Notes under the pieces: model-generated
Seen by the model: only the letters and a program-made list of their open reading frames with translations
The model's database searches: none
Told to the model about the DNA's origin: nothing
Source: a virus
Lineage: Duplodnaviria; Caudoviricetes
Direction: 5' to 3' (one strand)
IMG/VR virus record: IMGVR_UViG_3300020577_012633
Location: 32,001 to 96,000 of that record
DNA length: 64,000 bases
In this document: one piece after another, positions 28,376 to 62,756 of the stretch
How positions within the stretch are numbered: position 1 is the first letter of the stretch
Layout of the letters: each line of letters begins with the position of its first letter
Program-made: the position numbers and the translations under genes

Positions 28376-29092
28376 ATGGAAACAATTATACCAAAAATAT
28401 TTCACCAAATATGGCTCAATGGGAAACTTCCTGAAGAACATTGTTGTTTTAGAGATCATATGTTAGAACTGCATCCTGGATGGGAATATAAACTTTGGAC
28501 AAAAAGAAATATGCCCAAACTCATAAATCAAGATATTTTTGACAAATGGCCTGAAATGTGTTTCAAAGCTGATGTACTTAGATATGAAATATTGTACAAA
28601 TTTGGAGGGATTTACATAGATACTGATTTTTTGTTCTACAAAAATATAGAAGAATGTATGCAAAAGGAATATCTTATAGTCAATGAATTTGATGAACCGT
28701 ATTTTCATGCGGGTTGTTATCATATGACGAATAATTGTCTTATAGGAGCTGTTCCAAAAAGCGCATTAATGCAATATGTTGTATACAAACTAAGAGAAAG
28801 TATGCAAAGATATGAGGAATTAAAGAACAAATATAATCATTTTGATGCAGGTCTTTCAACTGTTGGTCCATATTTTTTTGACAAATGCGTAGAAGAGATT
28901 ATTGGAAGAAGTTTCTCTTACGATACAAAATATTTCTGTCCATTTAGACCTCATGATTTGCCTCATAAACAATATGAAAATTTTCCTGATGCATACGCAA
29001 TTCATTTATGGAATAATAACTGGAGAACCTATGGTGGAGCTGAAGTTTATAAAACTCTTCCATGTTACAAAAGAAAACATGGAATAAAATGA
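28376..29092 (+). CDS. DXD glycosyltransferase (GT32/Gly_transf_sug)
   Basis: IPKIFHQIW, ADVLRYEILYKFGGIYIDTD, VGP, AIHLW. Confidence 0.9.
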   Translation: METIIPKIFHQIWLNGKLPEEHCCFRDHMLELHPGWEYKLWTKRNMPKLINQDIFDKWPEMCFKADVLRYEILYKFGGIYIDTDFLFYKNIEECMQKEYLIVNEFDEPYFHAGCYHMTNNCLIGAVPKSALMQYVVYKLRESMQRYEELKNKYNHFDAGLSTVGPYFFDKCVEEIIGRSFSYDTKYFCPFRPHDLPHKQYENFPDAYAIHLWNNNWRTYGGAEVYKTLPCYKRKHGIK

Positions 29093-29766
29093 TACCAAAA
29101 ATATTCCATCAGATATGGTTTGAAGGTAAAATTCCAGAACCGTTTTTTTACTTTTCTGAACATTTAAAACAACTTCATCCTGGATGGGAATATAAGTTTT
29201 GGAATATAAATAATATGCCAGAACTTATTAATCAAGAAGCATTTGAATTTTACAACAATGTAATATTCAAATCTGATATTCTTAGATATGAAATGCTTCA
29301 TAAATTTGGAGGAATATATGTCGATTTTGATTTCCTGTTTTATAAAAATATAGAACCGTTAATAACAGATGATTATTTTTTAGTTTTTGATGTTGACAAC
29401 TTGCATATAAATAACTGCATTATGGGATTCTCAAAAGAAAATGAAATAATAAAATCAGTAATTGATGAAATACCAAAATCACTCGCAATTGCTAAACAAA
29501 TAAAAAACGGAAGAGACAATTTACAAGTTGGATTAAATGCAGTTGGTCCAAGATTCTTACAAAGAACTATTTCAAAGTTTGATAAAATCAAATTTATTGA
29601 CAGAAAATTCACTCATCCATTCGGAACAGAAGAGGTAATAGAAAAACAATTAAATGAGTTTCCAGACTCTTACGGAGCGCATTTTTGGAGTTCTCATAAT
29701 GGAACATATTTTATAGAAGCTCATAAAAAGCTTCCATGCTACATCATGCGTGAGAATGTTCACTAA
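29089..29766 (+). CDS. DXD glycosyltransferase (GT32), tandem paralog
   Basis: IPKIFHQIW, SDILRYEMLHKFGGIYVDFD, VGP, AHFW. Confidence 0.9.
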   Translation: MIPKIFHQIWFEGKIPEPFFYFSEHLKQLHPGWEYKFWNINNMPELINQEAFEFYNNVIFKSDILRYEMLHKFGGIYVDFDFLFYKNIEPLITDDYFLVFDVDNLHINNCIMGFSKENEIIKSVIDEIPKSLAIAKQIKNGRDNLQVGLNAVGPRFLQRTISKFDKIKFIDRKFTHPFGTEEVIEKQLNEFPDSYGAHFWSSHNGTYFIEAHKKLPCYIMRENVH

Positions 29767-38218: not shown

Positions 38219-38671
38219 TTAGGACTCGAATTCTTCAAGATGAGCAAGCATATTGTCGATCTGATCAGGAGTCAGCCCAATAGATTTCACATCATCAGGA
38301 GTTGCATACGGATATCTTGCGATTGCGTAAGCAGCTTCAATGCCCATGCTATTAAGGGCATGGCATCCTTCAGGAACAAAATTCAATTTTCCAAAAACAG
38401 GATATCGCTGAGGCTCAGGCTTAGGACCAACAATTTCAAAGCCGGTTTTCTGACCATTCTCATTACGATACCACTTACGAAGAATGCGATTCTGGGGTTC
38501 TTTGCGATTCCATCGCTCCCATTCTGCATTACGACGAAGAGCCTTCCAGTAGAAGCTATAGAGTTTCTTGAGCTTCTTGAAAGTATCGAAATCGCAAGCA
38601 TGATAACCCCAACGACCTTGATAAGTATTCTGGTTGAACTTATTCTTCTGTGCATTCTGAATCGTAGTCAT
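38219..38671 (-). CDS. hypothetical protein
   Basis: GRWGYHACD, WERWNRKEPQNR; good RBS. Confidence 0.75.
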   Translation of the reverse strand: MTTIQNAQKNKFNQNTYQGRWGYHACDFDTFKKLKKLYSFYWKALRRNAEWERWNRKEPQNRILRKWYRNENGQKTGFEIVGPKPEPQRYPVFGKLNFVPEGCHALNSMGIEAAYAIARYPYATPDDVKSIGLTPDQIDNMLAHLEEFES

Positions 38672-38691
38672 AAATTTTCCTTTTTCTAAAA

Positions 38692-39255
38692 TTACTGGTT
38701 TCCGTACTTTTCTTTGAGACGAGCATATTCTTGTTTATCATGCTCTTCATTTAACAGTTTCATTCTTTCTTTTTCTTGCTGTTCTTCTTGTTTCTTTTTT
38801 TGCTCCTTTTCTAGTTTTTGTTTTTCCTCGTTTGCAAGCCTAATTGCTGTCGCATTTTTCTTTTTCTGGTTAACTATATTTAAGAGTTCTTCCCGATGTT
38901 CCCAGTCAGTCGGAGTATCTAGAGTTCCGTTTTCTCCGCTAATACAAAAATTTTCATCAGTGAAGCTATATTTTGAAATAATCAGGTGTGAATATTCGTA
39001 TTCAGGATCATGTTCTTTGGTCCGAGACTTAGCGATGCTTTCTTCAAACTCGCTATAGTATTTGCATCTGTGAACTTCATCATAGAATTCTCTATCAAGT
39101 TTAACAATATGATTGGCGATATCTTCAAGAGAATTGAAAATTTCAGTTACCATATTGGCATCCTTGGAGTGCCGCCAATCGCACTCGCCTCTGAAATAAC
39201 TTGCAAGTTCGCAGTTATTGATATGACTGATAACGATGACAGGAAAACTGTTCAT
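38692..39255 (-). CDS. hypothetical protein with C-terminal coiled coil
   Basis: 187 aa. Confidence 0.7.
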   Translation of the reverse strand: MNSFPVIVISHINNCELASYFRGECDWRHSKDANMVTEIFNSLEDIANHIVKLDREFYDEVHRCKYYSEFEESIAKSRTKEHDPEYEYSHLIISKYSFTDENFCISGENGTLDTPTDWEHREELLNIVNQKKKNATAIRLANEEKQKLEKEQKKKQEEQQEKERMKLLNEEHDKQEYARLKEKYGNQ

Positions 39256-40421
39256 GATCTATTCTCCATATTTGATAAGTTCAAAAGTTGATATTTACGA
39301 AAAAGATTTCTCTTTTTAGAATCAGCAGGAATCGGTTCTGTGGCAATGGCAGTCACTTCGTAATCCTCACAATTATTGTTTATTGATGAAACAGTCGATA
39401 CTACATTGTATGGAGGTTTATTATGACAAACATTACCGTTGGATCTTCCTTTGGGAAATGGAAAGTCATCTCTGTTGGGCATAGACCCGAAGGAAGCCTT
39501 TCTAGGGCCAAATATTTTCTTTGTGAATGCCAATGTCCTGCTAAAACTAGAAGAATGGTTATAGGGCGTAGTCTTCGCGAGGGAACTAGCAAAAGTTGTG
39601 GATGCATTGGTCCATCTCAAAATACTGGGAAAAATGAAATTAACAAAACGTATGGAAAATGGACGGTTCTTGATGAAGCTAAAAAACCTGTTCATATAAC
39701 TGGAAGAGGTAAGTATTTTTTGTGCGAATGTTCTTGTATTCATAAGACTAGAAGAATCATTTCTGGTCACGCACTCCGTAGCGGAGGATCTAATAATTGT
39801 GGCTGTAAATGGAGATATTCGATTAGAAATGTAGACGCTCCATTTAATATGTTGCTTGGAAATTATATAAACAGCGCGAATAAAAGAAACAAGTCTTTTA
39901 ACTTGTCTTTGGATGACATTAAGCGTCTTTCGCAAGATATTTGTTTTTATTGCGGACAACAACCAATGGCAACTTTGAAGCCATTTGGCAAGCATAATTT
40001 TGTTTATAATGGTATTGACAGGATAGACAATTCTCTTGGATATACCATTAAAAATTGTGTTTCTTGTTGCAAGAACTGCAATACCGCAAAACTTGACATG
40101 AACGTTGACCAGTTTAAGAATTGGATTACATCGGTCTACCTGAGACTTTGTAAGTGAATTCGAATTTCTTGGTCTATCAGGTTCTTGAAACTTGGCGACC
40201 TGAATGCCATAATATTGGAGACGATCGTGAGCTTTCAAAAGCTCGCTTTCGTTCTTTACGCCAATAAGAACAAGATGAGGATGTTCTTGGTTCTAACCAG
40301 GAGCAAAAGCTCTGATTGCCTCAATCACAGCGTGTGCGCTTTGAACAGCGATCTGCGACTGCGAGAGGTCTTCTCTAACGAGAACGTACATGTAAACAGT
40401 TTGTGATTGTACCTACGTCAT
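39252..40421 (-). CDS. Pth2-like peptidyl-tRNA hydrolase with two in-frame TAG codons and an 807-nt in-frame insertion
   Basis: AGGAG RBS, ATG 40421: MT*VQSQTVYMYVLVREDLSQSQIAVQSAHAVIE...PG*NQEHPHLVLIGVKNESELL...FQEPDR [insert 39366-40172] DYEVTAIATEP...LFRKYQLL. TAG at 40413-40415 and 40293-40295. Confidence 0.85.
39394..39400 (+). promoter_or_regulatory. GTCGATA element upstream of the HNH gene
   Basis: Followed by a GGAGG RBS and ATG 39423. Confidence 0.5.
39423..40157 (+). mobile_element. HNH homing-endonuclease-like gene inserted antisense inside the Pth2-like gene
   Basis: Two CECxC..SCGC repeats, CFYCG, GIDRIDNSLGY..NCVSCCKNCN. Confidence 0.9.
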
Positions 40422-40438
40422 ATTTTGTCTCCTAAGTA

Positions 40439-40466
40439 AGTCTATCGTCATTTTTCCCAAAGTCAA
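40439..40466 (-). promoter_or_regulatory. putative sigma70-like promoter of the Pth2-like gene
   Basis: TTGACT-N16-TAGACT, containing GACGATA. Confidence 0.5.
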
Positions 40467-40523
40467 GCCTTGTTGGAATTTTTTGTGAAAATTATTAGTG
40501 TTAGTAATCTATTTTTACAAGAT

Positions 40524-41441
40524 TTACGAAAGAATCCAGTTGCAAATTCTTTCCAGCAAACTTTTCTTTTTTACTTCCGGTTTTGGTGACACTGAAGGAT
40601 TCATTGAGAATTTGCCTTCATTTAGTCCATCTCTTATCATTTTAAGACCAATTAGGTGGGATTGAACTCTCAAAGATATTGTTTTGCCAATATCTGCATA
40701 TTCGTAATATTCTGAACCAAAAAAATCATCGCCATAATCTGACAAAAATTGCACCCAATTAAATTCGGTTTCACAAGCTCCGATTGCCTCGTGACGCAAA
40801 TCTTCAAAAACGTTTTTATTTTTAATGACTTCGTAACGATAATCAGTCTTATTCAAAGACTCCCACTTCCCGCTCGTATAAAGATCTCTGAGATAATCTT
40901 TAGAAACGGAAATTATTTTATTTTTCTCGTCAGCAGAAAGATCTTTCCAAGCTTTATAACCATCTTCAGTATAAAGAACAGCCATTTCAGGATATTTATT
41001 TTTCAATACATCTTCAATATGTCCATCAAGATAAAGATCGCTAAACAAAGAATCGCCTTGATCTTCTCCAAAAGTATGAGTTTCAATGTATTGTTTTACA
41101 AAATCAATAGCAACTTCTTGATTCCAGGTTTTGCCTCTTTCTCCACAAGAACTTGCTCGGCATTTCCCGTCAAAATAGTCCAAATCACAACCGCCTAAAA
41201 AGTTTATACTAATAGGAGAACCCCAACTATATACAGCTTCTCCCAGATCACCAGAAACAAAAAGAGTAGCAGAATTCTGGTCAATATAGTAAATAACAGC
41301 AAAGTTCCAATCGCCGGGCTTTTTCCATTTAATTTTAATTATGTTACCATCTTCAGAATAAGTAAAAGTAGGAACATGGTCTTTAAACCAGTTTTCTCGT
41401 ATATTTTTATCTTCTCTTTTGTAAATCTCATACTTGCTCAC
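40524..41441 (-). CDS. hypothetical phage protein
   Basis: WKKPG, LFVSGDLGEAVY, YFDGK. Confidence 0.75.
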   Translation of the reverse strand: MSKYEIYKREDKNIRENWFKDHVPTFTYSEDGNIIKIKWKKPGDWNFAVIYYIDQNSATLFVSGDLGEAVYSWGSPISINFLGGCDLDYFDGKCRASSCGERGKTWNQEVAIDFVKQYIETHTFGEDQGDSLFSDLYLDGHIEDVLKNKYPEMAVLYTEDGYKAWKDLSADEKNKIISVSKDYLRDLYTSGKWESLNKTDYRYEVIKNKNVFEDLRHEAIGACETEFNWVQFLSDYGDDFFGSEYYEYADIGKTISLRVQSHLIGLKMIRDGLNEGKFSMNPSVSPKPEVKKKSLLERICNWILS

Positions 41442-41656
41442 AGATCAATTCTCCGAGTTTCTGAGTATGGAGTCTGGTCACAAGAAGGACATGCAGGATA
41501 AACGAAACCATCACATGAAACCATGTTCTTGTCAAGTCTCAAAGAAAAATCATAAATCTTTCCACAAGCACAATGAATAGAACCTTCTCCTGCATCATTA
41601 TCTGAAATAGTTCTATGATCAAATTTGGTAATATTGACTTTACTTACGATCTTCAT
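41438..41656 (-). CDS. small zinc-ribbon protein
   Basis: CACG..CPSC. Confidence 0.55.
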   Translation of the reverse strand: MKIVSKVNITKFDHRTISDNDAGEGSIHCACGKIYDFSLRLDKNMVSCDGFVYPACPSCDQTPYSETRRIDL

Positions 41657-41766
41657 TGGATATGACCTTTTTAGGCTTGTGTTTTCTGAAAATAAACTTA
41701 ACAGGCTTTGGAACTTCCTTTTTCGGTTCTTCTTTATTATTTTGAGAATCTTTCACAGATTATTCC

Positions 41767-41976
41767 TTATTTTTTGTGTCCTAATTTATTGAAAATAGAA
41801 AGAGCTTCTTCAACAGAAACTCCATGTCCTGCAATTGCTATTTTGTCCTTTGGAAATTCAAAACCAACACGGATTTTTCCTTGTCCAATACTGACAATTT
41901 TTATTTCTCCAATCTTCTTACCGTCTTTAGTATAAAGAGTTGAAGTTTCCTCAGGTTTCATTGTAAAAACCAACAT
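41767..41976 (-). CDS. CsrA/RsmA-like protein
   Basis: MLVFTMKPEE..IKIVSIGQGKIRVGFEFPKD follows the CsrA beta pattern; the conserved HREE is absent. Confidence 0.65.
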   Translation of the reverse strand: MLVFTMKPEETSTLYTKDGKKIGEIKIVSIGQGKIRVGFEFPKDKIAIAGHGVSVEEALSIFNKLGHKK

Positions 41977-41981
41977 AACTT

Positions 41982-42359
41982 TTACTCCTTCAAAGAAGCA
42001 AGATATGCATAAAGATCTTCAACAGAATCAAACACTGGAATTTTTAGAAAATTTGCAATATTAATTTCTCTTTCAACACCAGAGCTTTCTCCTGGAAGGC
42101 GAAGGACCGCATGACAAAGAGGAAGGAAAGACATGCAATAAGCAAGCCAATCTTCATAGCTACGAGGTATGATGCAATGGTAAAAATGCGTCCACAACAT
42201 ATTGACAGGAACGCATTTTCCTTCATCCATCAACCTGTTAAACATCTTTACTGAAATGTTAATGTTTACAGCAGGATCAGGCTTGGTGTATGGAGAACAA
42301 ATGAAAACACGTTTCTTGTTCTTTGAATTCAGCAGGATTTGTTCAGCAGTAAGTTCCAT
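41982..42359 (-). CDS. DUF4406/N-deoxyribosyltransferase-like protein
   Basis: VFICSPYT, CHAVLRLPGESSGVERE. Confidence 0.75.
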   Translation of the reverse strand: MELTAEQILLNSKNKKRVFICSPYTKPDPAVNINISVKMFNRLMDEGKCVPVNMLWTHFYHCIIPRSYEDWLAYCMSFLPLCHAVLRLPGESSGVEREINIANFLKIPVFDSVEDLYAYLASLKE

Positions 42360-42373
42360 TTTAACCTTTCAAA

Positions 42374-42448
42374 TGCCCTCGGCGGGACTCGAACCCACAA
42401 CTCTCAGAATTTTAGAGATTCCGGTTCTGCCAATTGAACTACGAGAGC
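42374..42448 (-). tRNA. amber suppressor tRNA (anticodon CTA)
   Basis: GCTCTCG/CGAGGGC-A, D arm GTTC-AATTGGCA-GAAC, anticodon arm GGAAT-CTCTAAA-ATTCT, T arm GTGGG-TTCGAGT-CCCGC. Confidence 0.9.
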
Positions 42449-42452
42449 AATA

Positions 42453-42965
42453 TCAGTCACCTTCAAACGAAAGAGAAAAAGGCTTTCTCCACATTCCGTA
42501 ATTGTTCTTAATTTTCATACCATCAATAACTTCCTGGGGAGGAGAATTTGGAATGATAGTACACTGGTCTTCATGAACATTGAAGTCTCTATCTCCTTCG
42601 GCAGTTTTCGGGTCCATGACCTTGTAAATAGCGCCAAACCAGGAGAAAGCAAACTTACCGTCATCACACTTCCACCAGCCAATATCTCCAATTGCATCAC
42701 GATTCTTGCGAATCCTTCGCATAAGAGAAAGCGCCTCTTTAGAAACTTTAACCATTTCCTTAGAGTTTATAACAACGCATCCAAGGTTATCGTTCCCAGT
42801 AGGAAAGAAACCTTTGTTCTTCTTATGAGAAGAAGGACAAAAGACAATCTTGCCATCAATAGCAAAAATATTTACAGTAAATGGATTTGCCTTTTTTGTT
42901 GGTTTTTTGGTTTTTGTTTTACTGGTTAGAATTTTTGAACCAACATTTTTATTTTTTACTGTCAT
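42453..42965 (-). CDS. hypothetical protein
   Basis: DAIGDIGWW, FSWFG; start moved to ATG 42965. Confidence 0.7.
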   Translation of the reverse strand: MTVKNKNVGSKILTSKTKTKKPTKKANPFTVNIFAIDGKIVFCPSSHKKNKGFFPTGNDNLGCVVINSKEMVKVSKEALSLMRRIRKNRDAIGDIGWWKCDDGKFAFSWFGAIYKVMDPKTAEGDRDFNVHEDQCTIIPNSPPQEVIDGMKIKNNYGMWRKPFSLSFEGD

Positions 42966-42969
42966 ATTC

Positions 42970-43383
42970 TTATTTCCCGTACCAAGCCGCGATTGGTTTA
43001 ATAATAGCAAAAGCTGACCAACAATGATAAACATAGCCAAAATCGTGACAATTCATTCTAAAACCTTTACCAATCGTCCCGTCAAAATCTTTAATTTCTT
43101 TTTCCCAATTATTATCTAGATCAAAGTCATTCAAGTTTGCATTTTTCAACCATGCAATTACAAAATCTTTCCAGTCGATATCAAAAGTTTTTACTTCTAT
43201 TTTTCTGGCTTCAGAATTAATCGTAAAATATTGGTCTTTTGGGTCAGTCCAAAAAAGAACAAGACCTTTTCTTGGTACAATAGTATAATGAGAGGCTCCT
43301 TTAGGACAAAGAGCAGACAAATAATCAAGACACGCATTTAGTGTCTTATAATCGCCTCTAATATCGAATAATATGTTATTCAT
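42970..43383 (-). CDS. hypothetical protein
   Basis: DFDGTIGKGF..AWYGK. Confidence 0.7.
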   Translation of the reverse strand: MNNILFDIRGDYKTLNACLDYLSALCPKGASHYTIVPRKGLVLFWTDPKDQYFTINSEARKIEVKTFDIDWKDFVIAWLKNANLNDFDLDNNWEKEIKDFDGTIGKGFRMNCHDFGYVYHCWSAFAIIKPIAAWYGK

Positions 43384-43384
43384 T

Positions 43385-43735
43385 TTATTCTGGATCTTTT
43401 TCAATAGCGACAGAATGACCTGCTAATCCAAAGAAAACAACATCCGCAATTGAAAGCATGAACTCTCTATGTGGAGTCCTCTTAAACTCATGCAGGAATA
43501 CTTCGCAATTTTCAGCCTGAACGGCAGCTTGTTCCAGCCTAGCTTTGATCTTTTCAATTTGACCGCTATTTATGGCGATAGAACGATCAGCAAGAAGCTG
43601 TGTCATCTTGCTTCTAAAATATTCTTCTTGCTCTTTGTAAAAGGAAACTTTTTTAGTAGCAGCCTCTATCAGCAAAGAACCTGGATATGTAAATTTCCAT
43701 GTTTCCCGATTTCTGTCTTTGAATTCACTGTACAT
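43385..43735 (-). CDS. hypothetical protein
   Basis: 116 aa, AAGGA RBS. Confidence 0.7.
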   Translation of the reverse strand: MYSEFKDRNRETWKFTYPGSLLIEAATKKVSFYKEQEEYFRSKMTQLLADRSIAINSGQIEKIKARLEQAAVQAENCEVFLHEFKRTPHREFMLSIADVVFFGLAGHSVAIEKDPE

Positions 43736-61227: not shown

Positions 61228-62466
61228 TTATGACAATTTCCTAACTATTTTAACGTTTTTCTTTCCCTTTTTAATTATCAAAAATTTATCATAGAAAAAC
61301 TGATTAATTTTTACGATTGGTTCATTTACTTTTGCGCCATTTATTGTTATACCGCCAGATTCGATTATTCGAACTGCATCTGATTTGCTAGTCGCTAATC
61401 CGCTTTGAATAAGGACTGACACAACCGGAACAGTTTCGCTATCAATGTTTGCAGATCCAAGAACCTTACATGCCAACTCAAATTCTTCTTGGGTTAAATT
61501 ATCCCAATCTTCGTAGTACATTGATCTAGAAATATTCCTACATTTGTAGGCTGAATCTTTACCGTGAACAAGTTCTGTCATTTCTATTGCTAGCGCATTT
61601 TGCAAAATTCTAGCAGATTTGTCTTTATTATGTAGTTCTATATTTGTATCAAGCTGTTCATCTGAAGACAGACTAAACATTTTAAATACATTTTCAATTT
61701 CATCATCTTCAATATTCATCCAAAACTGGAAAAAATCCCATACTGAAGTTTTGGAAGAATCTAGCCAAACTGCTCCTTCAGAAGACTTGCCAAATTTTGT
61801 TCCATCTTTTTTAGTTAGAAGAGGGAAAGTTAATCCGAAAACTTCATTCTTTTTCTTTCTACAAAGCTGTATTCCAGAGCAAATGTTTCCCCATTGGTCA
61901 TTGCCTCCAATTTGAAGTATGCATCTAAATTTTTCAAATAGCATATCAAAATCTGAAGCCTGAAATAAAGTATAACTCATTTCGCCAAAGGTAAGTCCAC
62001 CATTTGACAATCTCGCATGAATAGCTTCATTTTCTAGCATGTTATTAACAGAAAATCTACAAGCAACATCTCTTATAAATTCTAGTATGCTCACATTTTC
62101 GTAAAATGAACCATTAAAAACAATCTGAAAAGGCGCTCCAACAATAAGAGAACACTGTACTGCAATCTTCTGAGAATTTATATGAATTTCATGTTCAGTA
62201 AGTTGAGGCCTATCAGTTCTCCGACCAGTTGGATCTCCAATCATTGCAGTAAAATTACCAACTAAAATTATTGGCATATGGCCATGCTTAGAAAACCTTT
62301 TAAGGGTTATCAATGCAAGAAGATTGCCTACAGTGAGGCTATCTGAAGTTGGATCAAATCCACAATAGACAGGTATAGTTCTATTATCAATGATTTGAGA
62401 GACTTTATCAAAGTCTGAACATTGAGCAATAAGATCTCTAGACTGTAGTTCTTTAAATAAACTCAT
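61228..62466 (-). CDS. tyrS: tyrosyl-tRNA synthetase
   Basis: YCGFDPTSDSLTVGN (HIGH variant), TAMIGDPTG, QIGGNDQWGNI, KFGKS, C-terminal S4 domain. Confidence 0.97.
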   Translation of the reverse strand: MSLFKELQSRDLIAQCSDFDKVSQIIDNRTIPVYCGFDPTSDSLTVGNLLALITLKRFSKHGHMPIILVGNFTAMIGDPTGRRTDRPQLTEHEIHINSQKIAVQCSLIVGAPFQIVFNGSFYENVSILEFIRDVACRFSVNNMLENEAIHARLSNGGLTFGEMSYTLFQASDFDMLFEKFRCILQIGGNDQWGNICSGIQLCRKKKNEVFGLTFPLLTKKDGTKFGKSSEGAVWLDSSKTSVWDFFQFWMNIEDDEIENVFKMFSLSSDEQLDTNIELHNKDKSARILQNALAIEMTELVHGKDSAYKCRNISRSMYYEDWDNLTQEEFELACKVLGSANIDSETVPVVSVLIQSGLATSKSDAVRIIESGGITINGAKVNEPIVKINQFFYDKFLIIKKGKKNVKIVRKLS

Positions 62467-62756
62467 TTTACCTGCCATTCAACTTCAACTGTTTCTGTAT
62501 CAATTTTGTACTTGCCAGAATTTGATCCATACAATTCTGTATCAAGTCCTCTCCAACTTAATGCAATGTTGTGCTTTATTGCAGTCTTTACAAGATGATC
62601 TTCTGGAACTTCTTCAATAGGAACAATGTCCCAAAATGATATATTATTTTTTGAAGAATAATTTATAAGTTCGCAAAGAATACTTCTTTTTGCAGTAAGT
62701 GTCCCAAAAATTCCTTGAATTTTTACTCTTCCTGATTTAGGAGGAATTTCAGCCAT
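62463..62756 (-). CDS. hypothetical protein
   Basis: 97 aa. Confidence 0.6.
   Translation of the reverse strand: MAEIPPKSGRVKIQGIFGTLTAKRSILCELINYSSKNNISFWDIVPIEEVPEDHLVKTAIKHNIALSWRGLDTELYGSNSGKYKIDTETVEVEWQVK

What the first reader, a model, noticed from the sequence alone, without database searches (positions are those of the whole stretch)
39252..42448. Amber-gated peptidyl-tRNA hydrolase next to an amber suppressor tRNA
Seen: a Pth2-like frame with promoter and AGGAG RBS has TAG at codons 3 and 43. Both lie outside the conserved blocks (YVLVREDL, QIAVQSAHA, LVLIGV, FQEPD, TAIA), which are intact. A well-formed CUA-anticodon tRNA lies ~1.95 kb upstream on the same strand. Other genes in the window are uninterrupted in code 11 and several end in TAG (873, 15319, 24461, 43833, 47067, 50483), so TAG is not globally reassigned here. 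Inference: a targeted switch in which Pth is made only when UAG is read through, because the suppressor is active or RF1 is limiting or inhibited. That is the condition in which peptidyl-tRNA would accumulate. Two stops would sharpen the response.
Basis: partly seen in the sequence, partly recalled or inferred. Interest (0 to 1): 0.9.

Follow-up and report, generated by a model that had tools for sequence, protein, structure and literature searches.

The report
Suppressor-tRNA-gated phage Pth2 gene
A fragment of a huge phage that otherwise uses the normal genetic code keeps two UAG stop codons inside a small tRNA-hydrolase-like gene and carries its own UAG-reading tRNA 2 kb away; dozens of distant phages pair an early stop with a matching tRNA, so the enzyme is probably made only while that tRNA overrides the stop, and here the gene is also read straight through a backwards selfish nuclease gene.

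Summary
A Pth2-fold gene (ATG at 40421, minus strand) has TAG at codons 3 and 43. A covarying, well-formed tRNA-CUA lies 1.95 kb upstream on the same strand.

It is not a pseudogene. Seven close relatives keep TAG at the same two codons and keep the tRNA, and exon 1 has dN/dS of 0.08-0.24.

Across 44 distinct viral loci and 8 bacterial-MAG loci, an early in-frame stop (usually codon 3) goes with a suppressor tRNA within 5 kb. The anticodon matched the stop in 23 of 23 clear cases, including one TGA/UCA pair. Cultured phages ME3 and Arash carry the module under wrong annotation.

A 98%-complete 494-kb relative is not TAG-recoded.

The gene is also split by an 813-nt insert carrying an antisense, codon-aligned HNH gene. 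Three diverged copies have none of the codons (TTA, CTA, TCA) that would stop the host frame; 18 other HNH genes carry them at 5.4%. So the host frame is evidently translated through the insert.

Dependence on the tRNA is well supported. Why it exists (coping with read-through, or limiting it) is inference.

I found no paper describing the gated module. This scan has met both features before on other DNA.

The parts
42374..42448 (-). Amber suppressor tRNA (anticodon CUA): class I, G1-C72, A73, short variable loop
   Evidence: ARAGORN. Rfam RF00005, 51.7 bits. In an alignment of 35 homologous suppressor tRNAs, all 20 cloverleaf pairs show compensatory changes.
40439..40466 (-). Sigma-70-like promoter match, TTGACT-16-TAGACT (weak)
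   Evidence: Consensus scan, 9/12. Not evidence of function.
40429..40433 (-). Shine-Dalgarno AGGAG, 7 nt before the ATG
   Evidence: Read directly from the sequence. SD-like sequences also precede the ATG in relatives.
40173..40421 (-). Pth2-like gene, first part (codons 1-83, ending FQEPDR), with TAG at codon 3 (40413-40415) and codon 43 (40293-40295)
   Evidence: dN/dS against relatives is 0.08-0.24. pLDDT is about 95.
39360..40172 (-). In-frame, stop-free insert of 271 codons in the hairpin loop between the FQEPD strand and the TAIA strand. It is the antisense reading of the HNH cassette.
   Evidence: No Pfam family, intein included, at E<=1. No Rfam intron. Low pLDDT. Antisense-frame dN/dS is 1.26.
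39423..40157 (+). HNH homing-endonuclease gene (244 aa), codon-aligned antisense to the Pth2 frame, with no TTA, CTA or TCA codons
   Evidence: PHROG 1035/3118/374, E down to 1.8e-15. Sense dN/dS is 0.19. 0 forbidden codons in 244, against 3.5% in window genes and 5.4% in 18 HNH relatives.
39252..39359 (-). Pth2-like gene, last part (EVTAIATEPIPADSKKRNLFRKYQLLNL...), ending in TGA that overlaps the next gene's ATG (ATGA)
   Evidence: It aligns with the C-terminal strand and helix of solved Pth2 structures. pLDDT is about 96.
38219..38671 (-). 150-aa protein of unknown fold (WGYHxCD...W.RW.RK.PQNR). In 11 of 44 loci its homolog lies on the same strand just downstream of the Pth2-like gene (median offset 383 nt).
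   Evidence: AF2 pLDDT 88. No informative structural match.

Best explanation
This is a two-part translational module: a phage amber-suppressor tRNA and a functional Pth2-fold hydrolase gene that can be translated only if UAG is decoded at codon 3, and here also at codon 43.

Without the tRNA, ribosomes that start at the SD-driven ATG release the dipeptide Met-Thr. With the tRNA, they continue. Output therefore rises steeply (roughly with the square) with the level of UAG read-through.

In this phage and two relatives the ribosome must also read through 271 codons that are the mirror image of a selfish HNH endonuclease gene. That gene is kept free of the three codons that would stop the host frame. 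The insert sits in a surface hairpin loop, and the last strand and helix of the enzyme are still made.

Shown by comparison:
- the stops are conserved;
- the tRNA matches the stop and lies nearby;
- the gene is under purifying selection;
- TAG is otherwise a stop;
- the mirror frame is kept open.

Inferred:
- the tRNA is expressed and charged (amino acid unknown);
- the protein hydrolyses peptidyl- or acyl-tRNA;
- the coupling serves to match hydrolase supply to the amount of stop-codon read-through, whether to clear its by-products or to limit it.
For: (1) L001-L007 keep TAG at the same two codons, and each has a tRNA-CUA 2.3-3.1 kb upstream on the same strand.

(2) Family-wide, 44 distinct viral loci:
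- 23 clearly gated with a suppressor tRNA within 5 kb, plus 8 more whose start is ambiguous;
- 5 gated without a tRNA in the locus;
- 3 ungated with a tRNA;
- 4 ungated without.
The anticodon matched the stop in 23 of 23 cases. L019 pairs TGA with tRNA-UCA. In most loci there is no start codon between the stop and the conserved core. The gene's real terminator was TAA or TGA in every locus where one was found, apart from L058, whose TAG reads as a further in-frame stop.

(3) 8 of 8 loci from bacterial MAG contigs show an early TAG plus a tRNA-CUA within 3 kb.

(4) Cultured phages carry it: ME3 (MT*, tRNA-CUA 450 nt upstream) and Arash (ML*, tRNA-CUA about 1 kb downstream).

(5) Exon 1 dN/dS is 0.08-0.24 at dS 0.7-1.5.

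(6) The fold is Pth2. The top Foldseek hits are all Pth2 (3erj, 2zv3, 1wn2, 1q7s, 1xty). The family profile against PDB entry 2zv3 gives E=8e-9 over the full length, last part included.

(7) There is no global recoding. In G001 (98% complete) TAG ends 24 of 209 long ORFs, reading TAG through gains less ORF length than the TAA and TGA controls, and no other gene is convincingly bridged by TAG. G001 has 71 tRNAs; its single tRNA-CUA lies about 38 kb from the nearest tRNA cluster and 2.7 kb upstream of pth2.

(8) The stop context suits read-through. The base after the stop is G or A in all but one of about 44 gated stops, and the second TAG follows PG, PP or DP.

(9) HNH: forbidden codons are 0/244, 0/247 and 0/248 in three copies that are 70-86% identical in DNA, against 246/4530 in 18 HNH relatives, none of which has zero. 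The last part of the gene is conserved and in frame.
Against: Nothing here is experimental. Expression, charging and decoding by the tRNA were not observed, and I could get no sequencing-run data.

About 12% of ORFs of 150 or more codons in G000 and G001 end in TAG, and their backup stops are no closer than those after TAA or TGA. Strong suppression should therefore be costly.

Five gated loci show no suppressor tRNA within 5 kb, and three ungated ones have one. With so few ungated loci the Fisher test is weak (p=0.055).

The family lacks the canonical Gly-Lys loop of Pth2 and has Glu where Pth2 has the DAG Asp. It falls far below the NCBIfam Pth2 equivalog cut-off (21 against 126 bits). Peptidyl-tRNA hydrolase activity is therefore not assured.

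A 271-residue junk loop might impair folding.
Confidence: 0.72

Rival explanations
1. Pseudogene: the Pth2-like gene died after the HNH insertion, and the TAGs are decay mutations.
For: The gene is interrupted and has two stops. Gene callers truncate or skip it in GenBank records of relatives.
Against: The same two TAGs occur in uninterrupted relatives. dN/dS is 0.08-0.24. Both stops are TAG and match a nearby tRNA. The frame is kept open over 271 inserted codons in three diverged copies.
Confidence: 0.02
2. Ordinary phage code switch (TAG read as an amino acid in many late genes, as in crAss-like and Lak phages). Pth2 would be just one recoded gene, with the others in the missing 76% of this genome.
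For: The record is only 24% complete. The phage also encodes an RF1-like protein and many tRNAs. Borges et al. describe such code-change modules.
Against: The 98%-complete relative G001 shows no TAG recoding. The stop sits at a conserved position (codon 3-8) across relatives only 30-50% identical, which scattered recoding would not give.
Confidence: 0.05
3. Negative-feedback homeostat. The Pth2-fold enzyme removes the amino acid or peptide from the suppressor tRNA itself. More read-through then makes more enzyme, which lowers read-through. The tRNA's real job lies elsewhere.
For: The pair is tightly linked and is the only visible client relation. Unrestrained suppression should be costly. Ungated family members occur without the tRNA. 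The active-site region departs from canonical Pth2.
Against: There is no evidence of substrate specificity. No other role for the tRNA was found.
Confidence: 0.13
4. The early stop ends a real two-codon leader ORF (a minigene), and the hydrolase is made by re-initiation or from an internal start. The tRNA would then be irrelevant.
For: A strong SD drives ATG-ACG-TAG, and an ATG lies 8 codons later in this window. Some relatives have possible starts after the stop.
Against: Most loci have no start codon between the stop and the core. The residues between the stop and the core are conserved in close relatives. The second TAG at codon 43 would still block. The stop type tracks the tRNA anticodon.
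Confidence: 0.04
5. The 813-nt insert is removed before or after translation, by an unrecognised intron or an intein, rather than being read through.
For: Homing endonuclease genes usually live in introns or inteins.
Against: No Rfam intron at E<=1. Only about 13 nt and 62 nt of the insert lie outside the HNH ORF. There is no Hint or intein domain in the host frame. A spliced intron would not need a stop-free mirror frame, yet three copies keep one.
Confidence: 0.04

Closest known systems
Stop-codon recoding in phages with phage-encoded suppressor tRNAs (Borges et al., preprint 10.1101/2021.08.26.457843; crAss-like and Lak phages)
   Same: A phage tRNA reads a stop codon, and in-frame stops hold back translation of chosen genes until the tRNA acts.
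   Different: There, 26-71% of genes (family means) carry in-frame stops, scattered within each gene, mainly late and lysis genes. Here the code is otherwise standard. One small gene is the only visible client, its stop sits at a conserved position (codon 3), and the tRNA is linked to it. Pth is not mentioned in that paper.
Phage PTH2 genes in jumbo phages (Iyer et al. 2021, PMC7824862)
   Same: Archaeo-eukaryotic-type Pth2 fold encoded by large phages, proposed to recycle peptidyl-tRNA.
   Different: That paper says nothing about in-frame stops or suppressor tRNAs ('suppressor' occurs 0 times). This family is a divergent branch (phrog_1866, 'unknown function').
prfB (RF2) autoregulation through an in-frame UGA (from my own knowledge)
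   Same: An in-frame stop early in a translation-factor gene makes its output depend on how efficiently that stop is terminated.
   Different: prfB escapes by +1 frameshifting and senses its own product. Here escape is by a dedicated tRNA, and no feedback has been shown.
ShiLan domain: hidden HNH insertion in actinophage DNA methylase (Arsenault, Gosselin and Gogarten 2025, PMC11855218)
   Same: An HNH gene sits inside a host gene with no intron or intein. The host frame has no stops across it and is predicted to loop out.
   Different: ShiLan's HNH is on the same strand in another frame. Here it is on the opposite strand and codon-aligned, so staying open means avoiding TTA, CTA and TCA.
Lambda bar minigenes and Pth (from my own knowledge)
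   Same: A strongly initiated two-codon ORF followed by a stop, linked to peptidyl-tRNA hydrolase biology.
   Different: In lambda the minigene is toxic to Pth-deficient hosts. Here the 'minigene' is the head of the hydrolase gene itself. The link is only an analogy.

Membership tests
Pth2 peptidyl-tRNA hydrolase (PF01981) | Sequence match above the curated threshold | tested here: met
   27.6 bits against a cut-off of 23. The family profile against solved Pth2 entry 2zv3 gives E=8e-9. The NCBIfam equivalog is not reached (21 against 126 bits).
Pth2 peptidyl-tRNA hydrolase (PF01981) | Pth2 alpha/beta fold | tested here: met
   The core has pLDDT of about 95. The top 13 Foldseek hits are Pth2 or Bit1, with TM 0.50-0.57 normalised to the target.
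Pth2 peptidyl-tRNA hydrolase (PF01981) | Catalytic residues as in characterised Pth2 | tested here: inconclusive
   The Q..HA motif is kept. The invariant Glu80 aligns with the Asp of DAG. The Gly-Lys loop is absent. Which residues are catalytic is from my memory, not checked here.
Pth2 peptidyl-tRNA hydrolase (PF01981) | Hydrolysis of peptidyl-tRNA | not testable with these tools
   Needs an enzyme assay or complementation of a pth(ts) strain.
Nonsense suppressor tRNA | Cloverleaf with a CUA anticodon in a 7-nt loop, under selection | tested here: met
   (20 of 20 pairs covary).
Nonsense suppressor tRNA | Charged, and decodes UAG in vivo | not testable with these tools
   The discriminator base differs between close relatives (A here, G in G001). 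Nearest-neighbour comparison gives no clear isotype.
Genome-wide TAG-recoded phage (code 15 type) | Many genes with in-frame TAG, and TAG rarely a terminator | tested here: not met
   G000 fragment and the 98%-complete G001.
HNH homing endonuclease | HNH family match, intact ORF, purifying selection | tested here: met
   PHROG hits. dN/dS 0.19. The DNA flanking the insert is mosaic between alleles (L081's last part resembles this window's, while its HNH resembles L001's), which suggests homing with co-conversion.
Group I/II intron | Recognisable ribozyme core | tested here: not met
   No Rfam match at E<=1 in 38500-43500 other than the tRNA. The non-HNH flanks of the insert are about 13 and 62 nt.
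Intein | Hint splicing domain in the host frame | tested here: not met
   No Pfam family in the 271-aa in-frame insert at E<=1. Host-frame dN/dS is 1.26.
Read-through endonuclease insertion (ShiLan type) | Host frame free of stops across an HNH gene encoded in another frame, beyond chance | tested here: met
   P(0 in 244) = 1.5e-4 from window codon usage. Three copies have zero, against 5.4% in controls. The orientation differs from ShiLan's.

The most novel reading that the evidence does not exclude
The tRNA and the hydrolase form a closed feedback loop. The Pth2-fold enzyme acts on the suppressor tRNA's own acyl or peptidyl form, so the pair holds UAG read-through at a set low level in a standard-code infection. 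That would give 'orphan' suppressor tRNAs of large phages, and of some bacterial chromosomes, a defined regulatory partner.
Probability: 0.13. Interest if true: 0.9.

Novelty: new variant of a known kind. Interest (0 to 1): 0.8.

Why it matters
Many large standard-code phages carry suppressor tRNAs with no known target. The XacN1 authors looked for targets and found none; XacN1's own homolog of this gene happens to be ungated.

A conserved, dedicated client gene gives these tRNAs a testable role. It also corrects a recurrent annotation error: the gene is truncated, split or missing in GenBank records.

It offers a compact natural switch that reports stop-codon read-through, and it can be studied in cultured phages of Acinetobacter and Salmonella.

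The backwards HNH gene shows a third way for a selfish endonuclease to live inside a gene, besides introns and inteins: shaping its own synonymous codons so that the host reads through it.

Tried and rejected
- blastn of the locus against the phage collection found nothing.
- A single-protein HNH scan found nothing. The two-sequence alignment worked.
- I rejected the Gln shown at the TAG positions in database homologs as evidence for glutamine. The DNA has TAG there, so the Q reflects the code used to predict those proteins.
- I looked at the phage TyrRS (window 61228-62478) as the charging enzyme. G001 lacks a TyrRS and has its own long-arm tRNA-Tyr, so it is not tied to the module.
- Isotype assignment of the tRNA by nearest neighbours was inconclusive.
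- I tested whether TAG-ending genes keep closer backup stops. There was no difference.
- A scan for other early-stop-gated genes in G000 and G001 found no more with TAG than with TAA or TGA. It also missed G001's own gated pth2, so its sensitivity is limited.
- A pattern search for a tRNA-CUA in GAP32 was too rigid to be informative.
- The conserved 150-aa neighbour gave no Pfam, PHROG or structural lead.


Full report
**What is in the window.** On the minus strand, AGGAG is followed after 7 nt by ATG (40421). The frame then reads Met-Thr-TAG, continues through the Pth2 motifs, meets a second TAG at codon 43, and runs on to FQEPDR. Pfam calls this part PTH2 (27.6 bits, cut-off 23).

After codon 83 the frame does not stop. 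It stays open for 271 codons that are the exact codon-aligned mirror of a plus-strand HNH endonuclease ORF (39423-40157; PHROG HNH families). It then resumes with EVTAIATEPIPADS...LLNL and ends in TGA, overlapping the next gene's ATG.

A tRNA with anticodon CUA lies at 42374-42448 on the same strand, 1,953 nt upstream. The qualifier is that 'TAIA intact' holds only across the insert.

**The stops are programmed.** A protein search found uninterrupted homologs of 119-137 aa that show Q at both TAG positions. Their DNA, fetched from viral contigs, has TAG at both positions in all seven close relatives (L001-L007). Each relative has a tRNA-CUA 2.3-3.1 kb upstream on the same strand. The Q is thus an artefact of the code used to predict those proteins.

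Exon 1 has dN/dS of 0.08-0.24 at dS 0.7-1.5. The stops have therefore survived saturating synonymous change in a gene under purifying selection.

**The pattern across the family.** Relatives are 30-55% identical.

- Of 44 distinct viral loci, 23 have ATG, then 1-7 codons, then a stop about 19-22 codons before the AVQ..HA core, with no later start codon and with a suppressor tRNA within 5 kb.
- 8 more are the same except for a possible downstream start. These include L001-L006, which also carry the second TAG.
- 5 are gated with no tRNA in the locus, 3 are ungated with a tRNA, and 4 are ungated without.
- The anticodon matched the stop in 23 of 23 cases. L019 pairs TGA with tRNA-UCA.
- The second stop recurs at the same loop in L010, L016 and L023, after PP or DP.
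- The base after the stop is a purine in all but one of about 44 cases.
- All 8 loci found in bacterial MAG contigs, one of them a 1.6-Mb Gemmataceae contig, show an early TAG plus a tRNA-CUA.
- The 35 suppressor tRNAs fold as a cloverleaf in which all 20 pairs covary.

Cultured phages carry the module under wrong annotation. In Acinetobacter ME3 the CDS is started after the stop. In Salmonella Arash the gene is split and the tRNA-CUA is called tRNA-Phe. Cronobacter GAP32 has MAQ-TAG, and I did not find its tRNA.

**Not a recoded genome.** The record is only 24% of a genome. I therefore fetched the 98%-complete 494-kb relative G001.

- TAG ends 24 of 209 long ORFs.
- Reading TAG through gains less ORF length than the TAA and TGA controls.
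- Only three TAGs are bridged by coding sequence, and the two with no start codon just downstream do not look like real genes.
- A scan for other early-stop genes finds no more with TAG than with TAA or TGA, though it missed G001's own gated pth2.
- G001 has 71 tRNAs. Its single tRNA-CUA stands about 38 kb from the nearest tRNA cluster and 2.7 kb upstream of pth2.

In the 123-kb record, pth2 is the only gene with credible in-frame TAGs.

**What the protein is.** AlphaFold2 on the 389-aa read-through gives a core (residues 9-84 plus 354-380) at pLDDT of about 95 and a low-confidence insert. The top Foldseek hits are all Pth2 or Bit1. The family profile aligns along the whole of solved Pth2 chains, last part included (2zv3, E=8e-9).

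The invariant Glu80 sits where Pth2 has the Asp of DAG. The Gly-Lys loop is missing, and the NCBIfam equivalog threshold is not met. It is a divergent Pth2-fold family (phrog_1866, function unknown). Its substrate has not been tested.

**The HNH insert.** The host frame is open because the HNH gene has no TTA, CTA or TCA among its 37 Leu and Ser codons.

- Window genes use these codons at 3.5%, so P(0 in 244) = 1.5e-4.
- The copy in L001 (66% protein and 70% DNA identity) has 0 in 247.
- A third copy, in L081, sits in a markedly different Pth2 allele that is also TAG-gated, and has 0 in 248.
- Eighteen more distant HNH genes have 246 in 4530, and none has zero.
- HNH sense dN/dS is 0.19, while the mirror frame has 1.26. 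The insert is therefore kept open but is not conserved as protein.
- The insert is not an Rfam intron and has no intein domain.
- It lies in the hairpin loop between two strands.
- L081's last part resembles this window's while its HNH resembles L001's, as expected from homing with co-conversion.

The published precedent is the ShiLan insertion. That one is on the same strand in another frame.

**Mechanism and its limits.** Comparison supports dependence of translation on the tRNA. Its purpose is inferred.

A negative-feedback loop on the suppressor fits the data equally well. About 12% of ORFs of 150 or more codons end in TAG, with no special backup stops, so read-through is probably kept low or brief.

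The phage also encodes an RF1-like protein that lacks domain 1 and has PPS in place of the PxT codon-reading motif. This may bear on UAG termination, but I did not pursue it.

**Literature and earlier scan notes.** I found PTH2 reported in jumbo phages and recoding by suppressor tRNAs. I found no paper on a stop-gated Pth2 paired with a tRNA. The XacN1 authors could not find targets for its tRNA-CUA.

This scan has recorded the gated module on other DNA many times (a word search returned 335 notes from at least 238 genomes), including an ochre version, and has also recorded the antisense read-through HNH. My tests agree with those notes.

Noticed in passing
L096:1432-2154 (G000 111965-112687; outside the window, at window coordinate 79965-80687): Phage-encoded RF1-like protein of 240 aa. 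It lacks domain 1, keeps GGQ, and has PPS where RF1 has the PxT codon-recognition motif and GRRHTS as in RF2. A homolog is in G001 at about 162 kb. It may alter UAG/UAA termination during infection.
   Followed up: partly
window 61228-62478 (-): Bacterial-type tyrosyl-tRNA synthetase (TIGR00234, 325 bits). No homolog was found in the complete relative G001, which has its own tRNA-Tyr genes. It is not tied to the suppressor module.
   Followed up: partly
window 38219-38671 (-): 150-aa protein (WGYHxCD...W.RW.RK.PQNR). Its homologs lie on the same strand, typically just downstream of the Pth2-like gene, in 11 of 44 loci and in one MAG locus (L130). The AF2 model is confident (pLDDT 88) but there is no Pfam, PHROG or structural match. 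It could be a third part of the module.
   Followed up: partly
window 40227-40246 (+): Terminator-like hairpin with a T run about 70 nt after the HNH stop codon, lying inside the first part of the Pth2 gene on the opposite strand. It could end the HNH transcript.
   Followed up: no
L093 (Acinetobacter phage ME3), L094 (Salmonella phage Arash), L092 (Cronobacter phage GAP32): GenBank annotation misses the gated gene. In ME3 and GAP32 the CDS starts after the stop; in Arash it is split in two. Arash's tRNA-CUA is labelled tRNA-Phe, and ME3's 'tRNA-OTHER'.
   Followed up: partly
L125 (Gemmataceae MAG, 1.64-Mb contig), L129 (Planctomycetaceae MAG, 499-kb contig): The gated Pth2 plus tRNA-CUA module also lies in large bacterial contigs, mostly Planctomycetota. 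It may be a prophage or a cellular copy; I did not resolve which.
   Followed up: no
window 41767-41976 (-) and 41982-42359 (-): Between the tRNA and pth2 lie a CsrA-like 69-aa ORF (E=6e-5, below the Pfam cut-off) and a nucleoside 2-deoxyribosyltransferase-like ORF (phrog_355, E=5.9e-15).
   Followed up: no
window 28376-29092 (+) and 29062-29766 (+): Two paralogous plus-strand ORFs (both begin ...IPKIFHQIW...HPGWEYK.W) in a genome where nearly all genes are on the minus strand. Unlike the HNH gene, they carry normal numbers of TTA, CTA and TCA codons (6 and 12).
   Followed up: no
G001 149451-149532; L024 near 2372: ARAGORN reports tRNA-like genes with four-base anticodons (aggt, tttt) in relatives. 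They could be frameshift-suppressor-like tRNAs or artefacts.
   Followed up: no
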